Below, piece after piece: positions 1,550 to 30,804 of a stretch of 64,000 bases of DNA. Every line of letters begins with the position of its first letter. Position 1 is the first letter of the stretch. The notes under the pieces are model-generated. The model saw only the letters and a list, made by a program, of their open reading frames with translations. It ran no database searches and was not told the origin of the DNA. Source of the DNA: a virus (Duplodnaviria > Caudoviricetes); the IMG/VR virus record IMGVR_UViG_3300017967_004030, positions 264 through 64,263 of that record; one strand, given 5' to 3'. A program made the translations under genes and the position numbers.

Positions 1550-1567
1550 ACTTTATTATACAATCTT

Positions 1568-2701: not shown

Positions 2702-2748
2702 AGAAAACTCCTTATAGTCATACTTATCTGCGTACATTACTCAACCCT

Positions 2749-2756
2749 AATAAATA
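2749..2756 (+). promoter_or_regulatory. T4-type late promoter motif (AATAAATA)
   Basis: Lies in the short divergent intergenic gap just upstream of the plus-strand cassette. Same TAAATA core precedes many structural genes in this window. Confidence 0.55.
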
Positions 2757-2777
2757 TGACATATATTGGATTTATGA

Positions 2778-4928: not shown

Positions 4929-4929
4929 T

Positions 4930-5427
4930 GTGTGGTATATAGACAAATTGCCTGAAGGTATAATTGACGATAGCTATAAAACATTGCCTTACATTAAAGA
5001 ACCATTTAATGATCCTACAGCAGTTAAAGAATGGATACAAATTTATGGTAATATTTTTGACACAGGTGAAATGGTAGATTATAGACACCCACAACCGGAG
5101 TGGACACAAAAAATTATTGAGTATACTGGTTTAGGTTTAGCAGGTAGTAGTTACTATAAAATGAATCCTGGAAAAATACTTCCTTACCATAGAGATGCAT
5201 ATGTAAGATATATCGATTATCACAAATTAGAAGAAGTTGAAAGAATACATCGTGCTATTATATTTTTAGAGGACTGGCAGCCGGGACATATATTTGAAAT
5301 AGACGGATATCCTTTAACAAATTACAAATCTGGAACTATAGTAGTATGGCAATATGACACTCCACACCTTGCCGCTAACTTAGGTACTAGTGACAGATAC
5401 ACTCTTCAAATTACCGGAATAAAATGA
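4930..5427 (+). CDS. 2OG-Fe(II) oxygenase / cupin-fold protein
   Basis: PGKILPYHRD (HxD), distal PHLAAN histidine and RYTLQITG. GTG start. Confidence 0.7.
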   Translation: MWYIDKLPEGIIDDSYKTLPYIKEPFNDPTAVKEWIQIYGNIFDTGEMVDYRHPQPEWTQKIIEYTGLGLAGSSYYKMNPGKILPYHRDAYVRYIDYHKLEEVERIHRAIIFLEDWQPGHIFEIDGYPLTNYKSGTIVVWQYDTPHLAANLGTSDRYTLQITGIK

Positions 5428-6602: not shown

Positions 6603-7795
6603 TTAACTAACAAAGATAAATCTTTGTTCCTTTTTTCTAGATTATTATAATTATGTTCTAAAATAGGTATCATTGAATTAAGATCCTTTTTAATATCCTC
6701 AAAGTCTCTAGAAATAAATTTATCAATAGAATTGCAGGTAGCTAAAAATCTTTTATTATAATTTTTTATTTCGTCGTAAGATTCATCAATAAAACTATCA
6801 AAGGTCTTATAGCCTAAAGATTTTAAATATTTTAAACTATTTGCCTGTCCAAAAAGAATAAAAGGTCTCATAAAAAATATAGGTTTAATTATTTTTTCAC
6901 TAAAAAACATCCTATCAGATTTATCAGTATAAAATGTTTCACTCACAATATGTAAATATGATTCGTAATATTTCCTTAGTTTGATATCGTGGGTAGGATT
7001 ATTAAAAGTCATATCTTCATAATCTATTACTGCTGGCAGTGTTTTAGATAAATTTTTTTTGTTAAATCTTTTATATATTTTAGGAAATTTTTCTGCAAAT
7101 TCTTTAATTGCAAAATCTATATTATCATTATTTGCAATATCCACTGCTTGAGATACTAATCCGTATTGCTTATTATTAATAAATTCATAAAGAGCTAAAC
7201 GTTGCGCACTAGGACGTCTATTTAGACACAAAAATTTATATTTTAAATTTTCATTATTTTTTATTTTCTTTAATGATAATTCTTTAAAATTTATTTTGTG
7301 TTTATTATAGAAAAGATATATATCTTCAAATCTATTATGATATATGTTTATTACACCGTTAGGGCTTTGTCTTACTAAATTACCTGTTAAATATATTACA
7401 TTAGAAAAATCTAAATCATACTTTTTTAAAATTGTCTCATAAACAGTATTATCTAAATAACCCAAATTCCAACCTTCTAATGTGTTGTGAATTAAAAGTT
7501 TACATTTTCCATCTTTTATTGATTTAACAATATCAATTGGGATAAAAAATGAATCCCAAAGCAACTTTCTGTCTTTTACATCTACATCGTAAGGAAAAAG
7601 CCAGTGTGATAGATACACAGGATAATAAAACTTATTAGTGCCTACACTGTTAATAAAATCTATATGTTTTGCATCTATCGGATCAGTTACACTATAATCA
7701 TTATCAGTATACTTCCCCCAGGTATCATTATTAAATCCGTTGAAAAGTTTATTTTTATCTCTGTATAGGGGAACTTTTATACTAGGGCTTTGCAT
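6581..7795 (-). CDS. Putative glycosyltransferase with GT10-like C-terminal domain
   Basis: FLCLNRRP, VSETFY, FSEKIIKPI..RPFILFG..LKSLGYKTF..IDESYD. Confidence 0.5.
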   Translation of the reverse strand: MQSPSIKVPLYRDKNKLFNGFNNDTWGKYTDNDYSVTDPIDAKHIDFINSVGTNKFYYPVYLSHWLFPYDVDVKDRKLLWDSFFIPIDIVKSIKDGKCKLLIHNTLEGWNLGYLDNTVYETILKKYDLDFSNVIYLTGNLVRQSPNGVINIYHNRFEDIYLFYNKHKINFKELSLKKIKNNENLKYKFLCLNRRPSAQRLALYEFINNKQYGLVSQAVDIANNDNIDFAIKEFAEKFPKIYKRFNKKNLSKTLPAVIDYEDMTFNNPTHDIKLRKYYESYLHIVSETFYTDKSDRMFFSEKIIKPIFFMRPFILFGQANSLKYLKSLGYKTFDSFIDESYDEIKNYNKRFLATCNSIDKFISRDFEDIKKDLNSMIPILEHNYNNLEKRNKDLSLLVNQLLTNL

Positions 7796-9192
7796 ACGTG
7801 ATAAAATTCTTCCATTTCAGGGAAAGTTTTTAAGAAGTCTGTTCCTCTGCGTCTATCGTGTTCTGTTACAAATTTATAAAAATCTGCTCTATTGCGATTT
7901 ACTTCATCAATATGCTTATAACTTTCTGATAATTTTTCTTGGAATACTTGATAATTCCTTCTCATACGTGTTATTTCGTGTTCATAAAAACCCATACCAC
8001 ACAATGGAGGCCAATCAATTTGTTCTTTATTTAAGTACATATAAGTAACCTGGTCTTTCATAATATTAAGGTAACTATGATCTAATATAAAAACACTCTG
8101 ATGTTGTGGCCATCTAAGATATGCAGCATCCATACTTACTGGATTTCGTCTTTCTGGGCCTGTGTTGAACTCATATCTAAACTTAATAAAGTCTTGCATA
8201 AACTCTTTGTAAGTTGTTACACTCAAAGCATTATAAGTTGCCATATTAGTTAATTTGCTTTGTGGGATTTCATTTAATATTCTATGACAGTTATCTAGCC
8301 ATTTGTTATAATCCAATCCGTGTCTAATATATTCTGCTTTTGCGCCTTTTGCTTCACAACTTGTATACAATTTAAATTCTTTAATCATACCCTCTGATTG
8401 TATGCGTTTCATTTTTTCTATCAAACTATCTATCATCGAATCAGGAACGCACAAATTACTATTAATATTCAATTCTAATTTAGGATTAGGATTTTCAATT
8501 ATATAATCAAGCACCTTAAATGTATCTTTACACATTAAAGGTTCACCGCCTGTTATTCTAAAAACTTGTAAGCTAGGATATAGTTCAGGCCACCATTTCC
8601 AAAATGCTTCTACATATGGATTGTGTTCTCTGTGTGGTATAGGTAATCTGTTTTCTCTTTCTAAGACATCCAAATTATTAAATCGAGTACTTGTAGGATA
8701 AGGTCCAAATTGTTTTATTTCTTCCATCCATTTACTACTAACTTCAGGTAAACAATAAGAACATTTAAAATTACATACGCTACTAAAACTTACTTCTAAA
8801 TATTTTGGATTAATATTTTTGGTAAAAGGATTATTTGTGATTTCTGAAAAATACGGATAGCTCCAATCTTCAGCACTTTTCATTACACGATCACTAAACA
8901 CAACATTATCTTTATCCGAATCTTCAATATTCCAACAGTAATCGCACTCTTCAGGTCTTTCGCCTTCGAGCATTTGTTTGCGTTTTTCTTTTTTGTAACT
9001 AGTATTATGTAATGCACTAGGATCAACTTCAATTTCTTGTAAAGGTATTTTATGTGCAGGTACGTGGTGGCAGCTATGTGTCATTCCTGTTTGAAGGTGT
9101 AAAGTTACTTGTGTCCATTTGGCCAAACATAGTGAACAACTTTTATTGTTTAGTTCACTTTGTACACTTCTATAATCGTTTGCTTGTGTCAT
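7777..9192 (-). CDS. Radical SAM enzyme with N-terminal Cys-rich (twitch/SPASM-like) domain
   Basis: CNFKCSYC (CX3CX2C), ITGGEP, plus N-terminal CLAKW...SCHH...ECDYCW. Confidence 0.9.
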   Translation of the reverse strand: MTQANDYRSVQSELNNKSCSLCLAKWTQVTLHLQTGMTHSCHHVPAHKIPLQEIEVDPSALHNTSYKKEKRKQMLEGERPEECDYCWNIEDSDKDNVVFSDRVMKSAEDWSYPYFSEITNNPFTKNINPKYLEVSFSSVCNFKCSYCLPEVSSKWMEEIKQFGPYPTSTRFNNLDVLERENRLPIPHREHNPYVEAFWKWWPELYPSLQVFRITGGEPLMCKDTFKVLDYIIENPNPKLELNINSNLCVPDSMIDSLIEKMKRIQSEGMIKEFKLYTSCEAKGAKAEYIRHGLDYNKWLDNCHRILNEIPQSKLTNMATYNALSVTTYKEFMQDFIKFRYEFNTGPERRNPVSMDAAYLRWPQHQSVFILDHSYLNIMKDQVTYMYLNKEQIDWPPLCGMGFYEHEITRMRRNYQVFQEKLSESYKHIDEVNRNRADFYKFVTEHDRRRGTDFLKTFPEMEEFYHVCKALV

Positions 9193-10109
9193 TCTTTTTC
9201 CAAAAATTTGTTTGACATTCTCATTGGATTTTGATAAATTTCTTTAAAAAATTTACTGTGAGGACCATCCAATGGTTTTGTAGAAATAGGAATATTTAAT
9301 TTGTCTTTTAATATATCCCCTAAAACTTCAATTTCTTGTAATAGATTTTTTTCTGTTAAATTTTTTGTTAATCCGTCCCAGTGCGAATTTAAATATTCAA
9401 AATCTCTTACGTTAATATAATCCCAATCAGTACACATTGTTTGATATAAACCTTCTCTAGCACCATAGATAGCCCAAAGTCCGTTTTCTACATCTGCGCC
9501 GACCATTAACCAAATATATAGTCTATGCAAGTTTTTCCAATGATTTTTATGAAAGTCCTCGACACTTACTTTTACGCCTCTATCTAGTGCCATTTTTACA
9601 CCTTCACGAAATCCTGCTCTCCAGGCCTGATGTGGAGTAGAATTGTTATGCACATCACAATACACTCCTTCCATTTGAATGTATTGTACGTCCCAGCAAA
9701 AATCAACTTGTGCGTGAGGGTTATTAGGATCGGCATTTTCGTGAGTTTTCATATTCAAAACAAATTCTTTAGGCCAACATTTAAGTCCGCCATTACCGTA
9801 TATTAGGCCGTTAATCATATTATTTCCTGCCCAACTTATTACACAGTTTGACAAATTTTTGTTTTCGTCAAAGTCTATAGTTTGATTTAAAAACTCTTGC
9901 CTAATAATATTATCGCCATCTACTGTGATAAATCTATCTGTTTCACTTAATTCAGCACAAGCTTTGTGTGCAGCATCTGAACCTTTTACACCGTGTACAC
10001 GTTTTGCCCAAGGAACTTTGCTGCATAAGTCTGCGTAATTTTTTTCAGCATTTGGTTCATCATAACTTAGATATATTATATCGTAGTCTAAAACTTTAAA
10101 TTTTTTCAT
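9189..10109 (-). CDS. Glycosyltransferase-like protein (GT-A-type)
   Basis: YDIIYLSYDEPNA, RVHGVKGSDAAH, FITVDGD (DxD), YGNGGLK, AWRAGFRE. Paralogous to the C-terminal domain of 233-1549. Confidence 0.6.
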   Translation of the reverse strand: MKKFKVLDYDIIYLSYDEPNAEKNYADLCSKVPWAKRVHGVKGSDAAHKACAELSETDRFITVDGDNIIRQEFLNQTIDFDENKNLSNCVISWAGNNMINGLIYGNGGLKCWPKEFVLNMKTHENADPNNPHAQVDFCWDVQYIQMEGVYCDVHNNSTPHQAWRAGFREGVKMALDRGVKVSVEDFHKNHWKNLHRLYIWLMVGADVENGLWAIYGAREGLYQTMCTDWDYINVRDFEYLNSHWDGLTKNLTEKNLLQEIEVLGDILKDKLNIPISTKPLDGPHSKFFKEIYQNPMRMSNKFLEKE

Positions 10110-10723
10110 TGTCTCACTTCATAATTATAAGTATCAAAATACTTTGCAGTGTATACACTTACGTTATTAGGATTAATTGTAGAATCAATTTGATCACTTA
10201 TATTAACTTGTTCTTGATTAAGTAATGATTGATAATTTATTTTTATACTTTGGTGAAGTATGTTTGGATCGTTCTTATCAGTTATACTAAAATTCATCAC
10301 TAAATCAAAAGATAATCTTTTATCTGCTTCAAAATGTTCTAATCTTTTTTCTTCATTCAAATATACAGTCCATTCATCTCGATAACAACATATGTTTATA
10401 TCAGCATTTGGCACATTTTGTGGAATATTATATAATCTATCTCTTACATTAGGTATTTTTGTTTTTTCTAATTGATCTGTTATAACTAATCTATTTTTTG
10501 TTGGATTGTATGTTACAATAAAATCATCAATACGCCTTACACCGTGTTGTATATCTTTAACATCTTCATAATTGACATATATACTATGCAAGCCGGGTGC
10601 TGTTTCTTCTTTACTAGATATCTTGTTTATTTTTCCAGTATCAGGATCAAAATAAACGTGCATTCCTACATTTGATTTAGAAACTTCTAAATTTTCAACA
10701 AATTTTCTTAAATTGTTTATCAT
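10106..10723 (-). CDS. Hypothetical protein
   Basis: 205-aa ORF overlapping both neighbours by 4 nt. No motif recognised. Confidence 0.75.
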   Translation of the reverse strand: MINNLRKFVENLEVSKSNVGMHVYFDPDTGKINKISSKEETAPGLHSIYVNYEDVKDIQHGVRRIDDFIVTYNPTKNRLVITDQLEKTKIPNVRDRLYNIPQNVPNADINICCYRDEWTVYLNEEKRLEHFEADKRLSFDLVMNFSITDKNDPNILHQSIKINYQSLLNQEQVNISDQIDSTINPNNVSVYTAKYFDTYNYEVRQ

Positions 10724-11556
10724 TGCACTAATTCCATATAATTGTTTAACATATATGGTTTTAAGAAATCTTTTTCAGTATAATGTAAAATTCCTAACTG
10801 TTGAAAATTTCCTAATTTTATTTCGCCTTTATGATTCATATATACGTCTACACAATCTTGCCAGTTTTTCTTTTTATTTGTCCATCCTTGTATCTGTGAC
10901 TTCATATGGATAAAGTTAGGAAAGCTAGAAACTTTGTTAGTAATTTTATCTTCACAATCTAGTATTATTGTAACAATTGCACTACACACATCAATACTAC
11001 ACCAAGACGGTCTGTTTTCTTTCAAAAATATTTCATAAAATTTTTGCCAATTTTGTACCACAAATTCTAACCATTTATAAAACTTGTGCGCAAAATCGCC
11101 TTTATTAAAATAATGAAATCCGCTGTATATATTAGGTAAATTATTACTTACAAATGTTTTTCTATAATATGTGTCAGTTATAATGTCTCCTCTATAGGTA
11201 AAGACTTTACTTGTATAAAACATTTCATAATTTTCTAAAAAGTCCCACCAAGAAGATATAGATTGTAAAATTAAAGTATCTGTATCAAGTACAATTGTTC
11301 TATCATACGGTGATGAATGATAAATTTTCCATCTATTTTGAATCTTCCATTCAAATTCTGCGGCATCATCATCCCACATTATAGGAATAATCTTGTCAAA
11401 TAAGTTTTTGTACTTTGCTGGAACTACATCGTCAGTAATAATACTTATTAGTTCTGTAGGATTATGTTTTTTCAAACTTAGAGCAAGTAGACAAGCTTGT
11501 TGTACATAATTAACTTGTTCATTATTCTGTGCAAGTACAACTATACCTTTACTCAT
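10720..11556 (-). CDS. Putative GT-A glycosyltransferase (GT8/mannosyltransferase-like)
   Basis: KGIVVLAQN, SPYDRTIVLDTD (DxD), NIYSGFHYF, LHYTEK. Confidence 0.65.
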   Translation of the reverse strand: MSKGIVVLAQNNEQVNYVQQACLLALSLKKHNPTELISIITDDVVPAKYKNLFDKIIPIMWDDDAAEFEWKIQNRWKIYHSSPYDRTIVLDTDTLILQSISSWWDFLENYEMFYTSKVFTYRGDIITDTYYRKTFVSNNLPNIYSGFHYFNKGDFAHKFYKWLEFVVQNWQKFYEIFLKENRPSWCSIDVCSAIVTIILDCEDKITNKVSSFPNFIHMKSQIQGWTNKKKNWQDCVDVYMNHKGEIKLGNFQQLGILHYTEKDFLKPYMLNNYMELVQ

Positions 11557-12400
11557 ATCCTACCTCGTCTATTATTCTATTTAGACTAAATTTATTCATT
11601 ACGTGTACACTTTGATCTTTAATAGAAATAGCTGTATATTCGCCTCTGTAATTTTCTTTTTCTACTAAAAAAATAAATTTATTATCTTCTAATTTCCACA
11701 AAATGTCTCTATCTATTGTATATAAATGCTTTCCTGGCAATTCTGCAATAAAACTACCTCTAGAAAATCCATTCATAATATGACCTGCTATACTAAATGC
11801 AAAATCATTCCTAAATAATGAGCTTTCTAGCTGATATACTGTTGTGTAATGACTCCAATTTTCTTGTATGTGCTTAATTAAGTCAAAATATATTTTGTTA
11901 AGTTCAGTTTTTCGAAAAAAAACTACAGTAGCCCAATAAAAGTCTATACTGTAATCGCTTATATAATCAAACTCTCTTTCGTCTCTTACTTTTGCAATAT
12001 CTTCTGATTTTTTAAACATTTGAAGATCATTTGGAGAATCAAAACAATTAGATAGTAAATTATTAGAAATTATATAATCAGTATCCAACAATAAAGTTTC
12101 TTCATAAGGAGACAAATCGTATGCTTCTACTCTATAGTTATTTTTAAAATTTAGTTTCTGGCTATAAAGAGTTCCATCGTGATAACTTTTTTTGTTAGGA
12201 CTGTCGTCTTTGTAATCAATTTTAATAATTTTTTCAAATGTGTCCTCAGGGAAAGAATCTTGAAGGTATAAGACACTATCTGTAATAATACTTACAGGAA
12301 TATTTAAATATTTTTTTATTCTGTTTGCAAGGAATACTGCTTGTTTTACATAATCAATTGTATCGTTATTTCTTGCAATTAAAAGTGCGCCTTTAGTCAA
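11549..12400 (-). CDS. Putative GT-A glycosyltransferase, paralogue of 10720-11556
   Basis: KGALLIARN, SPYEETLLLDTD (DxD), FRNDFAFS, HVMNK. Confidence 0.65.
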   Translation of the reverse strand: MTKGALLIARNNDTIDYVKQAVFLANRIKKYLNIPVSIITDSVLYLQDSFPEDTFEKIIKIDYKDDSPNKKSYHDGTLYSQKLNFKNNYRVEAYDLSPYEETLLLDTDYIISNNLLSNCFDSPNDLQMFKKSEDIAKVRDEREFDYISDYSIDFYWATVVFFRKTELNKIYFDLIKHIQENWSHYTTVYQLESSLFRNDFAFSIAGHIMNGFSRGSFIAELPGKHLYTIDRDILWKLEDNKFIFLVEKENYRGEYTAISIKDQSVHVMNKFSLNRIIDEVGYE

Positions 12401-12749
12401 TTTCTAATCCTACTAAATCAGTAACACTCCTATTTTTTTTGAGTTTTTCGTATTCGACAAAATAATTATTAGACGATGTAAAATACGTATTCAATATTTC
12501 ATTGTAAAATTCTTGTATATTGTCAATTTGTAAGGGTATGTTATTATCATCTACTAATACAATCTCATCTTGCTCCGATGACAACATTGTGTAGCAAAAA
12601 TTTATTAGTTCTTTAGTAACTGTGAACTGGCAACCGTCATAAAAATAAATTAGATCTTCTAAATATTTTTCTTTTAACAATCTTTTCTGGTTGTTAAGTG
12701 TAACCATAAAATTAGAAAATTCAATAGCTTTTTCTAAACGCTCGTCCAT
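12393..12749 (-). CDS. Hypothetical protein, first gene of the glycosyltransferase operon
   Basis: Start moved to ATG 12749 (MDERLEKA) because GGAG is at 12760-12757 and the longer start falls inside the promoter. Confidence 0.75.
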   Translation of the reverse strand: MDERLEKAIEFSNFMVTLNNQKRLLKEKYLEDLIYFYDGCQFTVTKELINFCYTMLSSEQDEIVLVDDNNIPLQIDNIQEFYNEILNTYFTSSNNYFVEYEKLKKNRSVTDLVGLEID

Positions 12750-12773
12750 ACTTGTACTCCTATAAGATATAAT

Positions 12774-12802
12774 AGTATATAACAAAAAAAATTATTTGTC
12801 AA
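12774..12802 (-). promoter_or_regulatory. Sigma70-type promoter TTGACA-17-TATACT
   Basis: Minus strand TTGACA at 12802-12797, 17-nt spacer, TATACT at 12779-12774, followed by GGAG and ATG. Confidence 0.85.
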
Positions 12803-12813
12803 ATAAGATCTGA

Positions 12814-13536
12814 CTACATTTTCCGCTGATGATCTAGAAATTTGTTACCTTGGGTGTCTTCACCACGCCAATATCTCTTTCCTACACCGTGCGGTTTTTT
12901 CTTGTCGACGCTGTTGCGTTCAATTCCTGCATTTTTCATTTCTTGTTGTTCAAGTTGAATGGCGTTTTCACTAAAATAATTTTCAGCAAGTTCTATTTCA
13001 AATTTATCAACAAAATATCTAGGAATAGGCATAACTGCACTTATTATATCTCCTTTTTTTACTTCTACTACTAGCTTAGGAGAAAGTATTTTTAAGTTAA
13101 AAGTAAAGTCTCTACGTAAATTATCTGTTTCAACTACTGCGGTCATATTAGATAAATTTGGTATAAAATAATTAGGAGGATTCATTACCATTAAATTAAT
13201 ACCGGGAGGAGTTCTAAATGTAAATCTATTTTGTACAGTAATAAGTCCACTTCCAAAATGAGCACTTATTGTTTGTTTACTGCAAGGACTTGTTTTTATT
13301 GTAACATCATTAGGCGCTTCTCCACCATTCCATTCTGCTGTAAAATCACAACTACTCCTTATTGCAAAACCGTATTGATTTCCAATGACTACAGGCAAAC
13401 AGTGAGCAACGTGTTTGTTGACCCAGTCTCTTGTTTTCATTCCTTTTAATGGTTGTACTATATCTAGATAATCATCTTTATGATATATCGATTCTGGTAC
13501 AACTAATATTTTGTTTTTTGGAAAATTATTAAGCAT
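12814..13536 (-). CDS. DUF6065-like protein
   Basis: HCLPVVIGNQYGF, FRTPPGINL, PPNY, VVETD match my recollection of DUF6065. Overlaps the end of the oxygenase gene. Confidence 0.6.
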   Translation of the reverse strand: MLNNFPKNKILVVPESIYHKDDYLDIVQPLKGMKTRDWVNKHVAHCLPVVIGNQYGFAIRSSCDFTAEWNGGEAPNDVTIKTSPCSKQTISAHFGSGLITVQNRFTFRTPPGINLMVMNPPNYFIPNLSNMTAVVETDNLRRDFTFNLKILSPKLVVEVKKGDIISAVMPIPRYFVDKFEIELAENYFSENAIQLEQQEMKNAGIERNSVDKKKPHGVGKRYWRGEDTQGNKFLDHQRKM

Positions 13537-14056
13537 TTTTTGTCAAAAATAGAACTATTGTATATCTTTCACCAGATTTAACTTCAGTTACTCCGTGTAA
13601 ATATTCTTTTGTACCTTCAAATTGTACAAGTGTTCCCGGAGTTGTTTCTGGTTGTAAATTTTGGTTTGGAAAAAATATTTGGCCGCCTTCGTAATCTTCA
13701 TTAAGATAGATTAATACACTATAATGTCTATTAGGATAAGGGTGTAGAGAACCGTCGAGATGTTCACAATCTGCGTGAGGAGGGTCTAGTTTATCTCCTT
13801 TGCGCCATCTTACCAACTGAAATGTTTCTATCAAACATTTGGTTTTGTATTTTGTTTCTATAATTTGTCGTACGTTTAATCCTATGTCGTCTAACAATTG
13901 TTGTATATCTTTATTAGATATATTACTTTTATGAATAAATTTTTCAGACCAATGGTCGTTTGTAACTATCCAGTCATTTGTTGTTGTTACATAATCTACG
14001 AGACTGTTAATATTATTCTTATTTAAAAAATTATTATCTATATAAATGTCCTGCAT
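13529..14056 (-). CDS. Prolyl 4-hydroxylase-like 2OG-Fe(II) oxygenase
   Basis: PPHAD (HxD), YSVLIYLNEDYEGGQIFF, LHGVTEVKSGERYT (distal His and 2OG-binding Arg). Confidence 0.8.
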   Translation of the reverse strand: MQDIYIDNNFLNKNNINSLVDYVTTTNDWIVTNDHWSEKFIHKSNISNKDIQQLLDDIGLNVRQIIETKYKTKCLIETFQLVRWRKGDKLDPPHADCEHLDGSLHPYPNRHYSVLIYLNEDYEGGQIFFPNQNLQPETTPGTLVQFEGTKEYLHGVTEVKSGERYTIVLFLTKNA

Positions 14057-14084
14057 ACTTTATATATTTAAAATACACAGGACA
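14047..14084 (-). promoter_or_regulatory. 15-bp RNA hairpin covering the oxygenase start codon, with a TAAATA late promoter motif (14070-14065) at the loop
   Basis: Minus strand TGTCCTGTGTATTTT-AAATATAT-AAAGTATGCAGGACA pairs fully with 3 G-U wobbles. The ATG (14056) is in the 3' arm. Confidence 0.7.
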
Positions 14085-14103
14085 CTATATAGTAATTGGT
14101 TTA

Positions 14104-17100
14104 CTACGGAAGCAAACCGCCTGATATTGTGAACGAAGCACCATCTGAACCTGCGCCTGTTTGCGCAACTCCTACAGTATAGAAACCAGTTGGAAGTTGA
14201 GCAGATATAGTATCAGTACCGTTTGCATCTGTTGTTCTACTACCAGATGTATATGCTGCGCCGTCTTTGTACACTGAATACGCATACGATGTATTTGGTA
14301 TTCCGCCTGTGATACTGACATACGCTGTCAAACCTACTGCTACTGCCGTAACCTGAATAGCATACGTCGGAGGTGGCGGAGGCGGTGGTGGTGGCGGAGG
14401 CGGAGGTGGTGGCGGAGGTGGTGGCGGAGGTGGTGGCGGAGGTGTTGAGACTGCCGAAACTATTGTAAACGCTTGATCTACTACAGTGCCATTTAAAACT
14501 AAATCTGCTCTCCAAGTACCTACTTGCCCGATACCTGTACTTGTACTTCCACTAGCACTCGAACTAAATAATCCTTGGAATACATTATCTTTATAAGCGT
14601 TTACGGCCACAGTTGTTGCATTGCTACTGCTCCAGGTAATAGTATAAATGTCTGATGTAGTTCCAGATAGAGGAGATATACTAACACTTCCAGTTGGTCC
14701 AGGGGGCGGTGGTGGAGGTGGTGGAGGTGGCGGAGGTGGTGGCGGAGGTGGTGGTGGTGCTGCACTTACAAAGATAGTATCTGTATCTAGTGTATCTGTA
14801 CCGTGCGCTAGTGCTGCTGTATGGATTCCTCCTGCAGTAGCAGTAAAAGTTCGAGAACCAGAAGTTCCATTAACTGGGCCAACAACTATACTATTCAATC
14901 CATAATAAGCATAAGCTGTAACTGTAGTGGTTGTATTACTACTTGTCCAGGTTACTGTTATTGTGTCTCCTACGTTATATACACCTGATCCTTCAAAATA
15001 AATATTTCCAGTTGGTCCTGGTAAGCCGACTGCAATAGTATCACTTGCTGTTACGTACTTTAATGTGTTAGTGGCATCATAATAAGATGATGCAATACTT
15101 GCTCTCCAATTGCCTGTATTAGCTAGAACTTCGTATGTTAAGGCGCCACCCGGTTTTGTAGTTGAACTTACAACTGCTGTAGTAGACGATGGCGGATATA
15201 TAGCAGCATAGGTAGTATTCGCACCAGTACCAGCGGTGTAATCAGCACGTATGGTTTCTCCTATAAACGCAGACGCAGCGTCAAACGCAATAGTTGGGTT
15301 TGGAATAGTTACTGCTTGATTAACAGTTAATGCTGGATTAGTTGATACTGTAATTTCTAGGGATGTATCAATTAAATTATATATTTTAATATAACCAGTC
15401 CAGGTACCTACTTGGTCTGCTACGCCAGATGCTGATCCTGACTTTGTGTTATACCTATTAGGATTAACATTACCTGATGGACTTATTACATAAATGTCAT
15501 ACCCAAATAAGGTTGCAGAGTTATAGCCGCCGTCCCAAGATAATGTAAATGAAGTAGAATTTACTGTACCCGATGTTGGTGACCAAGATATTGCAACATT
15601 ATCATAAGTAGGTGAGGGGTTCGCAACAGGTGTTTGGCTAGTGTCATTGATAGTTATTGACTGACTAGCAACTGCTCCGCCCGATGCTGTTTTTCTGACG
15701 TTAATTGTTTTAGATTCTGCACCTTCTGTGGTTGCATCTGCTATAGGACTTAAACTAAAACTTCCGGAATTATTAAACATCGAGAATGATCCACTAGATG
15801 TACTAAAATCTGATCCGCCCGTTACATCCCAATATAATGTAGGTGCACTTGCCCATCCTGTAGCTGTTACTGTATAAGTACCAGAACTTCCTTCGTTAAT
15901 ATTACTGGGTCCACTTATGCTATAAGTTGGTTCAACTGGAGTGACTGCATAGTATGCACTTGTACCGTCAGAAAAGTTAACAGTTATTGTTACACCTTCT
16001 CCGAAGCTTGTAGACATTGTAACAGGAAAAGTAGCTGTTCCACTAGCATTGGTTGTGCCCGACCCGCTATTGCCTGAAGTTAATTCTGTAGCAGACCAGG
16101 TAAAGTTTGTATTAGGGCGAGCATAATAGATATATACATCACCATCCGGATTTCCGGTAGCAGATACAATACTAACACTAGGACTATATACTGCTGTTAC
16201 CGTAAATGTAAGTGAACTAGCTAGGTCAGGGTTAGGCACTGATACATTATATGTTCTTTGTCCTGCTGAACCAAAAGATACTGTAGAAGTATAATTGCCG
16301 CTACTGTTAAAAGTTCCTGTAAATACGTCACTGCCCGAAACACTAAACGATCCATTAGGTCGACCTGTTATAGTTAAAGTTGCATTTTGATTTACATCAG
16401 GCGAACTAGGACTAATAGATATAGTGCTTTGATATACATCTGTTACAGTATAATTTAACGTTGTTGAGTTGTTACTAAATGCTTCTGCAATAGTAAAACT
16501 ATATGATCCTGCAGGGGAAGTTTGTATTTGTATTGTTGCCGTTCCATTAGAATCAAATACAAAAGCACTAAGGGATTGACCATTAATACTAAACTGTCCG
16601 CCGGGGAAACCTCCAGCTATAGTAACTTCTCGATCTGCGCCTGTCGCGCCTTCTATTACTGTAAAATTATTTCTACTTAAACCTAGCACAGCAGTAATTG
16701 TATAGTTTGTCGAAGCTGTCAAAGGGCTATAACCAGACACATTTTCAAAATGTGAAGTATATGTATAATTTCCAGGTTTTGCTTGTAACCTAGTAAAAAC
16801 TAATTGTCCATTTGCAGGAATAGTTGCCCCTGTTCCAGGTAATCCTTTTGGTACATCAGCCACAGACGGATTATTACTAGTCACAGAACCAAGATGTTCG
16901 GTATTAGGAGGACCAACTACAGTATGTGTGAACGAATTATACACAGGAGAAGATGTCGGATTAACTGTTGTACTGTTTACTCCCGAAGGTAAATCATCAT
17001 TAATAAGCGTTAGTGAAGTACTAGCACTATCACCTGTATCTCGATGTGTCCAAGTTACCGTCATAGTTTTGTTGCCATCATTGACAGATTCTTGTAGGAA

Positions 17101-19479
17101 CTGCTTTACAATACCTACATATCCGCTGACGCCGCCGCCCGATTGTGCTTTCGAACCACTTAATGCACTGTAGGTGCTAGTAAAGTCTCCGGCGGTTATT
17201 GTACCAGAAATCGACCAATCCCAAATATCTCCCGCGTTATAGCCGGTTGACTCACATTGTAATATAATAGAATCACCTTCATTAGCTGATGTTATGAGAC
17301 TTTGTAGTGCAGTACTCCAAAAATTTACTGTAATGCTTTTTGCAATTGGTGTTGTTGAAGTGTCTTGTATTATAGCAAATATAGCATTTGAACTATTGTT
17401 AGGTCCACTTACTCGTGTTCCAAAAATTTCGGATCCTTCAGTTGTAGAATCTGCAACAGATGTTCTAGTAAATGTGTATGAACCATCTCCTGTGTTTGGA
17501 AGATTAGTAATTGTTACAGATGCTGTGCCGCTCATAGCCCCGCCAACAAAGTCTGCTGCAACAGCATTTGTTCCACTAACTGCATTTACGTTAGACCAAC
17601 TTACTCCGCCAGTTGTAGCTTCCCAGTTGCTTACTGTTCCTGTATATGTAAAGGTTTTGTATGTAGTTTCGTCACCGAGAGTTGGAGAACTATATCCAGT
17701 AGTAACATCTAAATCACTATTTACTACAGGAACGTTTGCAATTTCTGATTTTCCTGTCCAATAAATTTTAGTGCTTTGACCATTACCGTCTGATTGAAGA
17801 ACTGTAAAATCATATGTTATGCCTGCACCTCTAGCATCCAACACTGTTGTTGGTGTTACACTTACCGGTACTGTAACGCTTTGTCCAACACCTATGGTAT
17901 AATTTTTACTTGCAACTCCGCTGGCTGAACTTACACCGTCGACATCTACAGTCCAGGCAGCAGGTCTGTTTGTTTCTTGAACTGTTATTGTTCCGCTACT
18001 ATTGCCGGTGTTTGTAACAGTAATGTTTGTACTTGCCGAAGTATTGACAATTACATCTCCAATATCCCACGCAGTATTTTGAGTAAGGTATGCACTTGGG
18101 GTAACGCTAAAAGTGAATACCGCCGGTGGTGGAGGTGGTGGTGGTGGAGGTGGTGGGGGCGGTGGTGGGACACTAGTATCATTAATAACTATACTAATGG
18201 AATCTGCACCATTATCTAGACTAAGTGTTAATGTTTCAGGACCTTCTGCAAGTTGATCAGACACAGGACTAATTACTAAAGAATTTAAAGTTCCAACTGT
18301 AAAGGCTCCTTGCAAAGGTATTCCAATGTCTGCTTGGCTAGTTCCTGTAATAGTATAAGGGATAATAGTACCATTAGAAACATTTGTAGTTGTAAGAGTA
18401 ATACTAGCACTGCTGCCTTCATTGACACTAGCAGCTGATCTACTTAAAGTATAAGACGGAACAGGTGGCTGGCTTGCACTTAATTGTACTATTGTGCTGC
18501 CCACAGGAAGACTTGCTGTGGGAAATACTACAGTATCGTAAGCTGTACCATTAATATTTACTGTTCCATCTGGAATTAGTAGAGATACAGAACTTGTCCA
18601 ATCACCTAATACAGCTTCATCTATCGAAAAACCTCCGGGATTGGGATCTGTAAATAAAACTTTAAATTGAATTGTTCTACTGCTTGTCTGTAATGCATAT
18701 AACTCATATGCACTTTGACTATATGTATTACCTGCATCTTTTCTATAACAAAGTTGATAACTACTACTTAAATTTGTAGCACCGATATTTTGACCTTGGC
18801 CTACACCTTTATTACTAAATGTACTATCGCCTTTAAAACTAACAACTCCCATATTGTTCATTTCGGTTTGCCAGTCTATTGTTTTTTGCTGATTAAGATT
18901 ATAGCTTACACTTGCATTAAATCGTATTTCACCACCTGCATTAAAAAAATGTCTACGAGCAGCATCTGAAGGGAAAGTAACACTAAAAATATGGTTTATA
19001 TAACTAGTCCAATTTCCGCTTACAGAATTTAAATATGTACTTGATATTTGTGTACCTGAACTATTATTTAAATTTACTGTAGCTGCCTGATCAACAGTGT
19101 CGATTTCAAATTTATCATTTTCAATTTGAGTCATTAGGTTTTCTAATGACTGGATATATGCGATTTCTATTAGATCTGCATTCACAGGATCATTTTCAAA
19201 ATCTCCAACAATAAAATCATTTATAGATACATTTCCAGCACCCACTTGATGTGCTCTACATCTAATTAGATCAACATAAAGATCTTCATATTGCTGTGCA
19301 GTTATTTTGTCTGAAGTTGGAGGATTAACAGTGCGAGTACCTTGCACATCGCTATTAGCATTTAAAGTTTCTCCGTAACCGAAACTTGGAGTACTAGCTA
19401 ATGATAAACCTAGAACTTTTTCTAACCTATTTTGAAGGTTGTTAAATCTAGATGCTAAAATAGTTGTAGTTGTAGGCAT
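14104..19479 (-). CDS. Giant virion fibre/structural protein with Ig/Calx-beta-like repeats and polyproline linkers
   Basis: N-terminal domain shared with 19538-24577 (VTF...RRHFFNAGGEIRF). Repeated units such as SVNEGSSASITLTT...EGPETL and NINEGSSGTYTVT...TEGAES. Three polyproline runs. Located in the tail module. Confidence 0.75.
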   Translation of the reverse strand: MPTTTTILASRFNNLQNRLEKVLGLSLASTPSFGYGETLNANSDVQGTRTVNPPTSDKITAQQYEDLYVDLIRCRAHQVGAGNVSINDFIVGDFENDPVNADLIEIAYIQSLENLMTQIENDKFEIDTVDQAATVNLNNSSGTQISSTYLNSVSGNWTSYINHIFSVTFPSDAARRHFFNAGGEIRFNASVSYNLNQQKTIDWQTEMNNMGVVSFKGDSTFSNKGVGQGQNIGATNLSSSYQLCYRKDAGNTYSQSAYELYALQTSSRTIQFKVLFTDPNPGGFSIDEAVLGDWTSSVSLLIPDGTVNINGTAYDTVVFPTASLPVGSTIVQLSASQPPVPSYTLSRSAASVNEGSSASITLTTTNVSNGTIIPYTITGTSQADIGIPLQGAFTVGTLNSLVISPVSDQLAEGPETLTLSLDNGADSISIVINDTSVPPPPPPPPPPPPPPPAVFTFSVTPSAYLTQNTAWDIGDVIVNTSASTNITVTNTGNSSGTITVQETNRPAAWTVDVDGVSSASGVASKNYTIGVGQSVTVPVSVTPTTVLDARGAGITYDFTVLQSDGNGQSTKIYWTGKSEIANVPVVNSDLDVTTGYSSPTLGDETTYKTFTYTGTVSNWEATTGGVSWSNVNAVSGTNAVAADFVGGAMSGTASVTITNLPNTGDGSYTFTRTSVADSTTEGSEIFGTRVSGPNNSSNAIFAIIQDTSTTPIAKSITVNFWSTALQSLITSANEGDSIILQCESTGYNAGDIWDWSISGTITAGDFTSTYSALSGSKAQSGGGVSGYVGIVKQFLQESVNDGNKTMTVTWTHRDTGDSASTSLTLINDDLPSGVNSTTVNPTSSPVYNSFTHTVVGPPNTEHLGSVTSNNPSVADVPKGLPGTGATIPANGQLVFTRLQAKPGNYTYTSHFENVSGYSPLTASTNYTITAVLGLSRNNFTVIEGATGADREVTIAGGFPGGQFSINGQSLSAFVFDSNGTATIQIQTSPAGSYSFTIAEAFSNNSTTLNYTVTDVYQSTISISPSSPDVNQNATLTITGRPNGSFSVSGSDVFTGTFNSSGNYTSTVSFGSAGQRTYNVSVPNPDLASSLTFTVTAVYSPSVSIVSATGNPDGDVYIYYARPNTNFTWSATELTSGNSGSGTTNASGTATFPVTMSTSFGEGVTITVNFSDGTSAYYAVTPVEPTYSISGPSNINEGSSGTYTVTATGWASAPTLYWDVTGGSDFSTSSGSFSMFNNSGSFSLSPIADATTEGAESKTINVRKTASGGAVASQSITINDTSQTPVANPSPTYDNVAISWSPTSGTVNSTSFTLSWDGGYNSATLFGYDIYVISPSGNVNPNRYNTKSGSASGVADQVGTWTGYIKIYNLIDTSLEITVSTNPALTVNQAVTIPNPTIAFDAASAFIGETIRADYTAGTGANTTYAAIYPPSSTTAVVSSTTKPGGALTYEVLANTGNWRASIASSYYDATNTLKYVTASDTIAVGLPGPTGNIYFEGSGVYNVGDTITVTWTSSNTTTTVTAYAYYGLNSIVVGPVNGTSGSRTFTATAGGIHTAALAHGTDTLDTDTIFVSAAPPPPPPPPPPPPPPPPPPPGPTGSVSISPLSGTTSDIYTITWSSSNATTVAVNAYKDNVFQGLFSSSASGSTSTGIGQVGTWRADLVLNGTVVDQAFTIVSAVSTPPPPPPPPPPPPPPPPPPPPPPPPPTYAIQVTAVAVGLTAYVSITGGIPNTSYAYSVYKDGAAYTSGSRTTDANGTDTISAQLPTGFYTVGVAQTGAGSDGASFTISGGLLP
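14368..14442 (-). repeat. CCN tract encoding 25 consecutive prolines
   Basis: 25 NGG triplets on the plus strand, in frame with the 1791-aa ORF, mixed codons. Confidence 0.95.
14701..14757 (-). repeat. CCN tract encoding 19 consecutive prolines
   Basis: 19 NGG triplets on the plus strand, in frame. Confidence 0.95.
18124..18168 (-). repeat. CCN tract encoding 15 consecutive prolines
   Basis: 15 NGG triplets on the plus strand, in frame. Confidence 0.95.
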
Positions 19480-19507: not shown

Positions 19508-19515
19508 TATTTATT
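19508..19515 (-). promoter_or_regulatory. Late promoter motif AATAAATA
   Basis: In the intergenic gap upstream of the 1791-aa gene start at 19479. Confidence 0.7.
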
Positions 19516-30796: not shown

Positions 30797-30804
30797 TATT
30801 TATT
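30797..30804 (-). promoter_or_regulatory. Late promoter motif AATAAATA overlapping the stop codon of the 5311-aa gene
   Basis: Minus strand GAATAAATAC, upstream of ATG 30778. Confidence 0.65.

What the first reader, a model, noticed from the sequence alone, without database searches (positions are those of the whole stretch)
9189..19479. Candidate virion hydroxyproline-glycosylation system: polyproline fibre, prolyl hydroxylase and glycosyltransferases in series
Seen: the 1791-aa fibre gene carries P15, P19 and P25 runs. The very next gene is a prolyl-4-hydroxylase-like oxygenase with a late promoter motif, then a DUF6065-like gene, then three DxD glycosyltransferase-like genes on the same strand. 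Established: plant and algal extensins are made by P4H acting on proline runs followed by O-glycosylation of hydroxyproline; chlorovirus PBCV-1 encodes a P4H acting on Pro-rich repeats; some phages glycosylate their virions. Inference: this phage may build extensin-like glycosylated polyproline rods in its fibres for stiffness, protease shielding or adhesion. Caveat: 2OG oxygenases are common in aquatic T4-like phages, so adjacency alone is not proof.
Basis: partly seen in the sequence, partly recalled or inferred. Interest (0 to 1): 0.85.

Follow-up and report, generated by a model that had tools for sequence, protein, structure and literature searches.

The report
Polyproline phage fibre with matched hydroxylase
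An uncultured giant phage has a tail-fibre-like protein with three long pure-proline spacers, followed by a collagen-hydroxylase-type enzyme and a helper that related phages without such spacers lack; the neighbouring sugar-transferase genes are an older, separate block.

Summary
A 1791-aa fibre-like gene carries P15, P19 and P25 runs. It is followed by a 175-aa 2OG/Fe oxygenase, a DUF6065 gene, two GT8-like paralogs and a third, unconfirmed DxD gene. The claimed late promoter before the oxygenase was not confirmed.

The reading is partly supported. The oxygenase has the HxD..H..R set, and its model matches protein prolyl/lysyl hydroxylases best. DUF6065 has a dUTPase-like fold and occurs fused to this oxygenase in both orders, so the two form one unit.

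Of 80 related loci that keep the fibre N-domain gene and the GT/radical-SAM cassette, 79 lack the oxygenase, DUF6065 and any proline run. Only the window's clade has all three; L005 (from another search) also has all three.

In 37 of 46 informative loci, this oxygenase family sits just downstream of a Pro-rich repeat gene (polyPro, PPFF, VPPP, PPVV or collagen-like). The base rate is 9 of 433 control ORFs.

The GT cassette is therefore older than the hydroxylase and independent of it. It also occurs, without hydroxylase, in Ralstonia phage RsoM2USA. A dedicated hydroxyproline-glycosylation chain is not supported.

Earlier notes of this scan had already found PPFF-plus-oxygenase arrays on other DNA. 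No chemistry has been shown.

The parts
14104..19479 (-). Fibre-like structural gene, 1791 aa. Thr/Ser/Gly-rich with Ig-like domains and three polyproline spacers (P15, P19, P25). The last two each precede a small ~86-aa beta domain at the C-terminus.
   Evidence: Pfam HYDIN/VesB-like Ig E 2.8e-5, just below cut-off. N-terminal ~300 aa are 31% identical (E 1e-31) to the neighbouring 1679-aa gene.
18124..18168 (-). P15 run (aa 438-452)
14701..14757 (-). P19 run (aa 1575-1593). The paralogous fibre has only PPEP at the aligned site.
14368..14442 (-). P25 run (aa 1680-1704)
13529..14056 (-). 175-aa 2OG/Fe(II) oxygenase of the prolyl/lysyl-hydroxylase structural type. Invariant H94, D96, H154, R164.
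   Evidence: Pfam PF13640. Alignment A1. AF2 pLDDT 95.6. Foldseek top hit PBCV-1 vCPH 5c5t, E 3.7e-10. VIA-align P3H1 Z 17.6, vCPH 17.2, P. putida P4H 17.2, PHD2 17.0.
12814..13536 (-). DUF6065 protein, 240 aa, overlapping the oxygenase gene by 8 nt. dUTPase-like beta-barrel plus a C-terminal helix. Invariant R36, W38, H42, C46 lie in a low-confidence loop. Partner of the oxygenase.
   Evidence: Pfam E 1.2e-39. A2. AF2 pLDDT 83. Foldseek top hits all dUTPase/dCTP deaminase. VIA-align Z 10.2-8.2 for the top 14, all dUTPase-type. Fusions with the oxygenase.
12393..12785 (-). orf130 (118 aa from the ATG at 12749), first gene of the conserved cassette. No family.
   Evidence: Homolog present in 73 of 80 related loci and in RsoM2USA.
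11549..12400 (-). GT8-like putative glycosyltransferase a, 283 aa, DTD motif
   Evidence: present in 77 of 80 related loci
10720..11556 (-). GT8-like putative glycosyltransferase b, 278 aa, paralog of a, DTD motif
   Evidence: present in 78 of 80 related loci
10106..10723 (-). orf205, no family
   Evidence: present in 57 of 80 related loci
9189..10109 (-). orf306, a very abundant, highly conserved phage protein of unknown family with an invariant DGD. Glycosyltransferase status unconfirmed.
   Evidence: At least 8000 relatives, none with a Pfam domain among the 120 listed.
7777..9192 (-). Twitch-domain radical SAM protein, last conserved cassette gene
   Evidence: NCBIfam NF033640, E 1.1e-96, 324 bits over cut-off 170; present in 70 of 80 related loci
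19538..24577 (-). Paralogous 1679-aa fibre-like gene without proline runs
19508..19515 (-). AATAAATA, the likely late-promoter-type motif ahead of the fibre gene. It probably drives fibre, oxygenase and DUF6065 together.
   Evidence: inference for co-transcription

Best explanation
The interval holds two separate modules.

Module A is the polyproline fibre, the oxygenase and DUF6065.
- The oxygenase is an active-looking 2OG/Fe(II) protein hydroxylase of the prolyl/lysyl-hydroxylase structural type.
- It works as one unit with the dUTPase-fold DUF6065 protein.
- It most likely hydroxylates prolines in the P15/P19/P25 spacers of the fibre encoded just upstream. This would stiffen or stabilise these polyproline-II rods, which hold the distal Ig-like domains. 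This step is inferred, not shown.

Module B is orf130, two GT8-like genes, orf205, orf306 and the radical SAM gene.
- It is an older cassette that follows the fibre N-domain genes in hundreds of related phages that have no hydroxylase.
- It therefore has a job that does not depend on hydroxyproline. Its target is unknown; it could be the fibre N-domain protein or a glycan.
- If it glycosylates the fibre at all, hydroxyproline would at most be an extra acceptor.
For: Enzyme:
- HxD..H..R is invariant in 20 of 20 aligned relatives.
- The confident model (pLDDT 95.6) matches viral collagen prolyl hydroxylase, P3H1, LH3, PHD2 and bacterial P4H first. By sequence, the PDB search gives P3H1 at E 1.1e-4.

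Partner:
- A DUF6065 gene lies in 75 of 85 loci of the oxygenase family.
- One protein carries both domains in L075:4769-6016, and so do 5 of 12 longer DUF6065 homologs. Both domain orders occur.

Presence and absence:
- Of 80 loci with orf306 relatives (63-86% identity), the oxygenase, DUF6065 and any run of at least 6 prolines occur together in 1 and are all absent in 79.
- In 70 of 72 such loci the gene before orf130 is a fibre N-domain homolog. Median length is 328 aa, and 65 of 66 complete ones are at most 434 aa.
- All 5 clade members whose fibre is fully seen (the window, L002, L003, L005, L006) have proline runs of 14-36 plus the oxygenase.

Family-wide link:
- Of 46 loci with more than 1.5 kb upstream of the first oxygenase, 37 have a Pro-rich or collagen-like ORF ending within 2 kb.
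- Across the loci these ORFs fall into four sequence classes: PPFF 37 loci, polyPro 8, VPPP/PPVV 2, GXY 8.
- The control is 9 of 433 ORFs in 398 kb of the same phages away from the arrays.

Reverse test:
- Of 74 PPFF-repeat loci found by DNA pattern alone, 49 have this oxygenase within 2 kb.
- A further 15 of 24 searched records have it elsewhere in the record.

Within the window's structural module, runs of 10 or more prolines occur only in the fibre next to the oxygenase.

For the split into two modules:
- RsoM2USA keeps orf130-GTa-GTb-orf205-orf306-rSAM (28-48% identity) with no oxygenase, no DUF6065 and no proline run.
- A sigma-70-like site (11 of 12 matches) sits in the gap before orf130. 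This is a hint only.
Against: - No chemistry: hydroxyproline has not been shown in any phage virion in the papers I saw.
- The fold ranking declines smoothly (Z 17.6 to 12 at rank 50). Non-prolyl oxygenases such as PolD and PiuC score within 2 Z units.
- Long proline runs do not need such an enzyme. PF13640 was found in only 5 of 43 viral records holding a polyPro run. Of the 7 records that are at least 90% complete, 5 lack it. Only 1 of 69 polyPro sites has the oxygenase within 2 kb.
- Some family members have 2 kb or more upstream and no Pro-rich ORF (L010, L014, L047, L069, L086). L015 and L047 sit among replication genes.
- L009 has the oxygenase and DUF6065 at the same site, but the 182 aa seen of its upstream ORF hold no proline run.
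- Fibre, oxygenase and DUF6065 are adjacent and seem to move as a block. The label needs 3 changes on the orf306 tree. The co-variation therefore counts few independent events and could reflect linkage alone.
- The role of a dUTPase-fold partner in protein hydroxylation is unexplained.
Confidence: 0.5

Rival explanations
1. The proline runs are passive rigid linkers that need no modification. The oxygenase and DUF6065 modify some other residue or protein (another fibre residue such as Lys, Asn or Asp, or another virion protein). The link with polyproline reflects only that an adjacent block is inherited and exchanged together.
For: - Most viral polyPro runs have no such enzyme nearby (1 of 69 within 2 kb; 5 of 43 records).
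- The block [fibre-oxygenase-DUF6065] appears in three places on the orf306 tree, as expected for a mobile block.
- Lysyl hydroxylases LH3 and the mimivirus LH score almost as well as prolyl hydroxylases.
Against: - The same oxygenase family lies next to non-homologous Pro-rich sequences of four classes in different phage types.
- The PPFF reverse test is strongly positive.
- One related long fibre (1559 aa) without proline runs has no oxygenase.
Confidence: 0.2
2. The whole island (oxygenase, DUF6065, GTs, radical SAM, and the UDP-sugar genes further on) makes or remodels a polysaccharide or a secondary metabolite. The purpose could be to alter the host surface against superinfection. The island lies near fibre genes only because that region is variable.
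For: - Published readings of comparable phage clusters exist. PMC7824862 (passages seen) reads GT/2OGFeDO/cupin clusters of jumbo cyanophages as capsular-polysaccharide modification or secondary metabolism.
- PMC2938197 (passages seen) reads the Syn9 array of 10 dioxygenases plus a dUTPase-fold Cys protein as secondary-metabolite synthesis.
- The window also holds a UDP-glucose-dehydrogenase-like gene, a DegT fragment and a weak GT2.
- Arrays of up to 11 paralogs resemble pathway diversification.
Against: - The oxygenase pair and the GT cassette are inherited separately.
- The oxygenase family tracks Pro-rich protein genes, not sugar genes. L079 has 8 PF13640 oxygenase genes and no GT.
- DUF6065 is fused to TPR repeats in 4 of 12 longer homologs, which points to protein binding.
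Confidence: 0.15
3. The oxygenase hydroxylates a host translation factor or ribosomal protein, as P. putida P4H does with EF-Tu and OGFOD1 does with uS12. This would help ribosomes through consecutive prolines, which would explain why it accompanies genes rich in PP motifs.
For: - P. putida P4H (in complex with EF-Tu) scores Z 17.2 and OGFOD1 Z 15.8.
- PolyPro, PPFF, VPPP and PPVV repeats all contain consecutive prolines.
- That such motifs stall ribosomes and need EF-P is recalled knowledge, not from a call.
Against: - Collagen-like GXY neighbours do not need such help.
- Arrays of 5-11 paralogs are hard to explain with one host target.
- Most polyPro-bearing viruses lack the enzyme.
Confidence: 0.08
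4. DUF6065 (dUTPase-like fold) and the oxygenase act on a nucleotide or on DNA, and the transferases then add sugar to the modified base.
For: - dUTPase/dCTP-deaminase fold.
- Weak Tet_JBP Pfam match of the oxygenase, E 3.2e-5, 23.7 bits, below the cut-off of 34.9.
- Glycosyltransferase-like genes nearby.
Against: - No Pfam dUTPase match for P0003 at E <= 0.01.
- NgTET1 ranks only 40th, Z 13.0.
- TPR fusions.
- The pair sits in the structural module after a fibre gene and tracks Pro-rich protein genes.
- The GT cassette is independent of it.
Confidence: 0.07

Closest known systems
PBCV-1 (chlorovirus) viral collagen prolyl 4-hydroxylase, vCPH/vP4H (PDB 5c5t, 5c5u)
   Same: A small single-domain viral 2OG/Fe oxygenase. 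It is the best Foldseek match (E 3.7e-10, TM 0.72) and scores VIA Z 17.2. The virus also encodes Pro-rich repeat proteins. That it hydroxylates Pro-rich peptides is taken from the citation of Eriksson 1999 in PMC9301287 (passage seen) and from recall.
   Different: About 20% identity only. The host is eukaryotic. No DUF6065 partner is known for it. Here the candidate substrate is a homopolymeric run in a phage fibre, and activity is untested.
Tandem dioxygenase array of Synechococcus phage Syn9 with a dUTPase-fold, conserved-Cys protein (Iyer et al. 2010, PMC2938197; passages seen)
   Same: Phage-encoded classical 2OGFeDO genes are accompanied by a novel dUTPase-fold protein with a conserved cysteine. 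This fits DUF6065 (invariant C46). One of the oxygenase families there is TPR-fused.
   Different: There it is 10 oxygenases plus tryptophan halogenases, read as secondary-metabolite synthesis, and no Pro-rich substrate gene was proposed. Here it is one oxygenase and one DUF6065 directly behind a polyproline fibre. I did not test orthology to the Syn9 genes.
(PPFF)n protein plus oxygenase arrays of uncultured lake phages
   Same: The same oxygenase family (31-34% identity) and DUF6065, directly downstream of a Pro-rich repeat protein in the fibre region.
   Different: Those have 3-11 paralogous oxygenases, Pro-Phe repeats with Cys-rich tails, and genomes of about 100 kb. Here there is a single oxygenase, pure proline runs inside a giant fibre, and a jumbo phage.
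Plant/algal extensin and protist Skp1 pathways (P4H, then Hyp-O-glycosyltransferases); recalled, not from a call
   Same: A P4H-type enzyme lies next to a proline-rich target, with GT-A-like genes nearby. GT8 is also the family of the terminal Skp1 transferase Gat1 (recalled).
   Different: No Hyp-specific GT family was detected. The GT cassette is kept in 79 of 80 relatives that lack the hydroxylase, so the coupling that defines those pathways is absent.
Collagen P3H1/CRTAP and LH3 complexes (PDB 8k0e, 8zgc)
   Same: Best VIA match (P3H1, Z 17.6, rmsd 2.0 over 163 residues). These are hydroxylases that work with an obligatory partner or fused domain.
   Different: The partner here has a dUTPase-like fold, not the CRTAP/TPR type. 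There is no sequence relation beyond the catalytic domain.

Membership tests
2OG-Fe(II) oxygenase, PF13640 (P4H-type clade) | Pfam score over the curated cut-off | tested here: met
   40.9 bits against cut-off 27, E 4.1e-10
2OG-Fe(II) oxygenase, PF13640 (P4H-type clade) | HxD...H iron triad and a basic residue for the 2OG C5 carboxylate | tested here: met
   H94, D96, H154 and R164 are invariant in 20 of 20 sequences. Assigning R164 to 2OG binding is inference.
2OG-Fe(II) oxygenase, PF13640 (P4H-type clade) | Double-stranded beta-helix fold closest to protein prolyl/lysyl hydroxylases | tested here: met
   pLDDT 95.6. The top Foldseek and VIA hits are vCPH, P3H1, P4H, PHD2 and LH3, but the margin over other oxygenases is small.
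Prolyl 4-hydroxylase (enzyme activity) | Hydroxylation of peptidyl proline | not testable with these tools
   Needs an enzyme assay or mass spectrometry.
DUF6065 (PF19541) | Pfam score over the cut-off | tested here: met
   136.7 bits against cut-off 26.6, E 1.2e-39
dUTPase / dCTP deaminase | Fold | tested here: met
   VIA Z 10.2 (EIAV dUTPase, rmsd 2.7, 111 aligned). The top 14 hits are all dUTPase-type. Foldseek E 2.6e-4.
dUTPase / dCTP deaminase | Sequence family match (catalytic motifs) | tested here: not met
   No Pfam dUTPase match at E <= 0.01. The PDB profile hit to WSSV dUTPase reaches only E 0.15. So it is not filed as a dUTPase.
GT8 (glycogenin-like retaining glycosyltransferases) | Sequence match including the DxD motif | tested here: inconclusive
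   The A3 profile hits only glycogenin, 19 of 19, best E 3.5e-4, over the N-terminal ~100 residues up to the DxD. No Pfam GT8 match.
GT2 (for orf306, 9189-10109) | Sequence or fold match | tested here: inconclusive
   No Pfam or PDB match. ESM Atlas clusters carry the name 'GT2-like' but no common Pfam family. None of the 120 listed relatives has a Pfam domain.
Hydroxyproline O-glycosylation pathway (extensin/Skp1 type) | Glycosyltransferases functionally tied to the hydroxylase (co-inheritance) | tested here: not met
   The cassette is present without oxygenase, DUF6065 or proline runs in 79 of 80 related loci and in RsoM2USA.
Hydroxyproline O-glycosylation pathway (extensin/Skp1 type) | Hyp and Hyp-linked glycan on the target | not testable with these tools
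   Needs virion or recombinant protein analysis.
Twitch-domain radical SAM (NF033640) | NCBIfam score over the cut-off | tested here: met
   324.3 bits against cut-off 170, E 1.1e-96

The most novel reading that the evidence does not exclude
Phages build extensin-like rods. A two-part prolyl hydroxylase (a P4H-type oxygenase plus a dUTPase-fold DUF6065 subunit) converts polyproline and Pro-rich repeat spacers of tail fibres into polyhydroxyproline. In this jumbo phage the neighbouring GT8-like/orf306/radical-SAM cassette then decorates the fibre, hydroxyproline included. That would be the first hydroxyproline-based virion glycoprotein in a bacterial virus, and it would give a substrate to the long-unexplained phage oxygenase genes.
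Probability: 0.12. Interest if true: 0.9.

Novelty: new variant of a known kind. Interest (0 to 1): 0.66.

Why it matters
P4H-like 2OG oxygenases are among the common 'auxiliary' genes of aquatic phages, and their use is called cryptic in print (PMC9301287, passage seen). The published in-silico readings favour secondary metabolites or polysaccharides.

This locus offers a minimal and clean test case: one oxygenase, one helper, and one obvious candidate substrate with pure proline runs. It also comes with natural controls, namely dozens of close relatives that lack all three.

If hydroxylation is confirmed, three things would follow:
- a substrate class for a large phage enzyme family;
- a role for DUF6065;
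- evidence that phages use post-translationally stiffened polyproline rods in host-recognition fibres.

The work also corrects the appealing 'in series' picture. The sugar-transferase cassette is a separate, much more widespread module whose own target is an open question.

Tried and rejected
- Megablast of the whole interval, and tblastn of DUF6065, the fibre and the PPFF protein against cultured phages gave nothing useful.
- ESM Atlas search with the fibre N-domain gave no usable hit.
- PHROGs gave no family for the fibre, the GT-like genes, orf130, orf205 or orf306.
- The PDB profile search with orf306 gave only chance-level hits. hhalign of orf306 against the GT8-like pair was not significant.
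- Cyanophage ACG-2014b, whose oxygenases are the nearest in cultured phages (28-31% identity), shows no Pro-rich repeat ORF beside them. The link therefore does not extend to every PF13640 gene of cyanophages.
- Six-frame scans for Pro-rich frames give false positives on the antisense of glycine-rich genes, so counts were made on called ORFs.
- T4's TATAAATA as late promoter was rejected: 0 sites.
- The terminator scan found nothing on the gene strand between the genes.
- Complex prediction for oxygenase plus DUF6065 never ran because the queue was full at each of 14 attempts. No result of any kind exists.
- The careful tree search did not finish in the time allowed, so the quick IQ-TREE tree was used.
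- Paper searches: 'DUF6065' gave 0 papers. 'prolyl 4-hydroxylase + phage + hydroxyproline + virion' gave 4 papers; I read passages of one of them. 'polyproline / tail fiber / jumbo phage' gave nothing relevant in the 15 listed. 'virion glycosylation ...' was seen as a listing only. From these searches I found no report of hydroxyproline in a phage virion. Supplements were not consulted.
Full report
**What is there**

The window is almost the whole of a 64,263-base IMG/VR virus record rated 16% complete. That implies a genome of several hundred kb. Its structural module (gp6-, gp25-, gp5-like baseplate genes, a gp55-like late sigma factor, gp46/47-like nuclease) is distantly T4-like. The gp6-like protein is nearest, at about 37% identity, to jumbo phages Phosso, Atu_ph07, SCTP-2 and PA5oct.

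All genes from 24577 down to 6581 lie on the minus strand. In transcription order they are:
- a 1679-aa fibre-like gene;
- the 1791-aa fibre-like gene of the finding;
- a 175-aa oxygenase, after a 47-nt gap;
- DUF6065, overlapping the oxygenase by 8 nt;
- orf130, two paralogous GT8-like genes, orf205 and orf306;
- a twitch-domain radical SAM gene and orf404.

**The proline runs are real**

The runs are P15, P19 and P25 at aa 438-452, 1575-1593 and 1680-1704, written in mixed CCN codons. No other run of 10 or more prolines occurs on the coding strand of the window. The only other one is a P8 in ORF 53523-54761.

The two fibre-like genes are paralogs: their N-terminal ~300 aa are 31% identical (E 1e-31), and later domains are shared. 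The 1679-aa paralog has only PPEP where the 1791-aa protein has P19. The last two runs each precede a small ~86-aa domain. The runs therefore act as spacers between distal domains. This is read directly from the sequence; 'rigid polyproline-II rod' is inference.

**The oxygenase**

- Pfam PF13640 at E 4.1e-10.
- H94, D96, H154 and R164 are invariant in 20 of 20 relatives down to 34% identity.
- The AlphaFold model has pLDDT 95.6.
- Foldseek ranks PBCV-1 collagen prolyl hydroxylase first (E 3.7e-10), then P3H1, LH3, PHD2 and B. anthracis P4H.
- An independent all-against-all alignment gives P3H1 Z 17.6, vCPH 17.2, P. putida P4H 17.2 and PHD2 17.0.
- The decline is smooth, however, reaching Z 12 at rank 50. 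Non-prolyl enzymes such as PolD and PiuC score within 2 Z units.

The fold supports 'protein hydroxylase type' but does not prove proline specificity.

**DUF6065**

- Pfam E 1.2e-39.
- The model (pLDDT 83) is a dUTPase-like barrel with a C-terminal helix. Foldseek's top hits are all dUTPase or dCTP deaminase. VIA-align gives Z 10.2-8.2 for the top 14, all dUTPase-type.
- There is no dUTPase sequence match, so I do not file it as a dUTPase.
- It is tied to the oxygenase. A DUF6065 gene lies in 75 of 85 loci of the oxygenase family.
- One ORF carries both domains in L075. Five of 12 longer DUF6065 homologs are fusions with PF13640, in both orders. Four more are about 1000-aa proteins with two DUF6065 copies and TPR repeats.
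- Iyer et al. [quoted passage not shown] C46 is invariant here.

The cassette is kept:
- GTa in 77, GTb in 78, orf130 in 73 and the radical SAM gene in 70 of 80.
- In 70 of 72 loci where it can be seen, the gene just before orf130 is a homolog of the fibres' N-terminal domain. Its median length is 328 aa, and 65 of 66 complete ones are at most 434 aa.

The oxygenase, DUF6065 and any run of six or more prolines occur in 1 of the 80, which is the same contig as L006 in the window's clade. All three are absent from the other 79. One relative has a long (1559-aa) version without proline runs and without the oxygenase. All five clade members whose fibre is fully seen have runs: window 15/19/25; L002, L003 and L006 14/17/26; L005 36.

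On a quick maximum-likelihood tree of orf306 (87 rows), the oxygenase-bearing loci fall in three places:
- a 6-row clade with the window (support 99);
- L005, inside a well-supported 11-row clade whose other 10 rows lack the oxygenase;
- the long-branched L009.

The label therefore needs at least 3 changes. I read this as the block [polyPro fibre-oxygenase-DUF6065] moving as a unit against the background of the cassette. The correlation is perfect, but it rests on very few independent events between adjacent genes. For L009 only 182 aa of the upstream ORF are seen, and they hold no run.

**Family-wide evidence**

With a profile of the oxygenase I obtained 80 of at least 676 relatives in IMG/VR. 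Many loci carry tandem arrays of 3-11 paralogs.

Counts on called ORFs:
- Of the 46 loci with more than 1.5 kb upstream of the first oxygenase, 37 have a Pro-rich ORF (at least 8 Pro in 20) or a collagen-like ORF (at least 8 GXY) ending within 2 kb upstream.
- 48 of 84 loci have one within 2 kb on either side.
- The sequences are not homologous to each other: (PPFF)n in 37 loci, polyPro in 8, (VPPP)n or (PPVV)n in 2, and GXY in 8.

Notable single cases:
- L012 has a 268-aa protein with P26, P25 and P6, ending 16 nt before the oxygenase.
- L066 has P12 in an 841-aa fn3 protein, ending 20 nt before the first oxygenase.

Control and exceptions:
- In 398 kb of the same phage records away from the arrays, 9 of 433 ORFs meet the same criteria.
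- L010, L014, L047, L069 and L086 have 2 kb or more upstream and no such ORF.
- L015 and L047 sit among replication genes.

**Reverse tests**

PPFF repeats:
- A DNA pattern for PPFFPPFFP gave 80 of at least 125 loci. In 74 the repeat is in an open frame.
- 49 of these 74 have the oxygenase within 2 kb.
- Of the other 25, 24 records were searched and 15 hold it elsewhere. The 9 without it are fragments of 4-37 kb rated 4-31% complete.

Pure polyproline is different:
- Of 69 sites with a run of 10 or more prolines (from 80 of at least 123 pattern hits), 1 has the oxygenase within 2 kb and none has DUF6065.
- I handed 50 of these 69 loci to the whole-record search. 43 records were held and searched.
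- PF13640 occurs in 5 of these 43. Among the 7 records at least 90% complete it occurs in 2.

Long proline runs as such do not need this enzyme. The enzyme family, however, nearly always has a Pro-rich neighbour.

**The glycosyltransferase part**

- The two GT8-like paralogs are supported only weakly: glycogenin is the sole PDB family hit, best E 3.5e-4, up to the DxD.
- orf306 is unconfirmed as a transferase. It belongs to a very large, very conserved family of at least 8000 relatives.
- In cultured phages this family occurs only in the Ralstonia jumbo phage RsoM2USA. There the order orf130-GTa-GTb-orf205-orf306-rSAM follows a 390-aa fibre N-domain homolog, with no oxygenase, no DUF6065 and no proline run.
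- Together with the 79 of 80 relatives above, this shows that the cassette predates the hydroxylase and is independent of it.
- Other lineages of the oxygenase family have other transferases nearby: GT7 x2 in L013, GT2 in L011, GT61 and GT1 in L067, GT1 in L014. Others have none: L079 has 8 PF13640 oxygenase genes plus an SDR.

Glycosylation of the fibre remains possible. A dedicated hydroxyproline-glycosylation chain is not supported.

**Transcription**

- The T4 late motif TATAAATA is absent from the window (0 sites against 15.9 expected).
- AATAAATA is depleted (6 against 17.6 expected). Five of the six sites lie 20-30 nt before gene starts, including the fibre gene.
- The oxygenase has no such site.
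- A sigma-70-like site with 11 of 12 matches lies before orf130. The scan as a whole is not above shuffles.

This fits fibre-oxygenase-DUF6065 as one late unit and the cassette as another. That is inference.

**Verdict**

- About 0.5: the oxygenase and DUF6065 act on the proline spacers of the adjacent fibre.
- About 0.12: the full glycosylated-hydroxyproline picture.

Rivals are listed with their evidence in the Rival explanations section. They are passive linkers with a linked but unrelated enzyme, polysaccharide or metabolite tailoring as proposed in print, a translation-factor hydroxylase, and nucleotide modification.

Earlier notes of this scan had already described PPFF-plus-oxygenase arrays on other genomes. 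I had reached the same pattern independently. What this window adds:
- the minimal single-enzyme form with pure polyproline in a jumbo-phage fibre;
- the natural presence/absence series;
- the DUF6065 fusions;
- the separation of the sugar cassette from the hydroxylase module.

Noticed in passing
whole window; sites at 2749, 19508, 26090, 30797, 59371: T4's late promoter TATAAATA occurs 0 times against 15.9 expected. AATAAATA is depleted (6 against 17.6 expected), and 5 of its 6 sites lie 20-30 nt before gene starts on the right strand. It is probably this phage's late-promoter core.
   Followed up: partly
window 9189-10109 and loci L358-L437, L357: orf306 belongs to a very large, very conserved family: at least 8000 relatives, many at 65-86% identity, and no Pfam domain among the 120 listed. 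It always lies in the cassette orf130-GT8x2-orf205-orf306-rSAM behind small fibre N-domain genes. The only cultured carrier found is Ralstonia jumbo phage RsoM2USA. The cassette's target is unknown.
   Followed up: partly
L360, L361, L369, L377, L416, L433 downstream of orf306: Relatives carry variable arrays of further twitch-type radical SAM paralogs and orf404-like paralogs after the cassette, up to 4 radical SAM hits in L377.
   Followed up: no
L079:4281-5279, L055:4039-4992, L067:17-589: fn3-(PPFF)n and (PPVV)n proteins end in Cys-rich tails (about 10-14 Cys in about 40 residues). SPASM-type radical SAM genes lie nearby in L067 and L086. This may be a second kind of modification.
   Followed up: no
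L011:985-2019, L102:1418-2092, L066:4753-7278: Pro-rich repeats are followed directly by a Hint/intein-like start (Cys then hydrophobic stretch). Pfam Hom_end_hint is weak in L011, E 2.2e-4. This suggests self-cleaving or self-ligating stalk proteins.
   Followed up: no
window 53523-54761 (-), run at 53619-53642: A second, shorter proline run (P8) lies in a 412-aa protein of the baseplate region (phrog_90, endolysin-like). The site is kept as P6 in clade relatives L228 and L230.
   Followed up: no
window 30800-46735 (-): A single ORF of 5311 aa lies in the structural module. It was not analysed.
   Followed up: no
proteins P0049-P0052: About 1000-aa proteins carry two DUF6065 copies plus TPR repeats. 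One homolog (P0041) is fused to a VIT1 iron-transporter domain.
   Followed up: partly
window 233-6602: A sugar-nucleotide island on mixed strands: a UDP-glucose-dehydrogenase-like gene (1568-2737), a short DegT-type aminotransferase fragment (2778-3365, 195 aa), a weak GT2 (233-1549) and a weak GDSL-like gene.
   Followed up: no
L215:5805-9521: A second, 1238-aa PPFF-repeat protein lies about 30 kb away from the oxygenase array in the same 90-kb phage record. Such phages may therefore have several candidate substrates.
   Followed up: no
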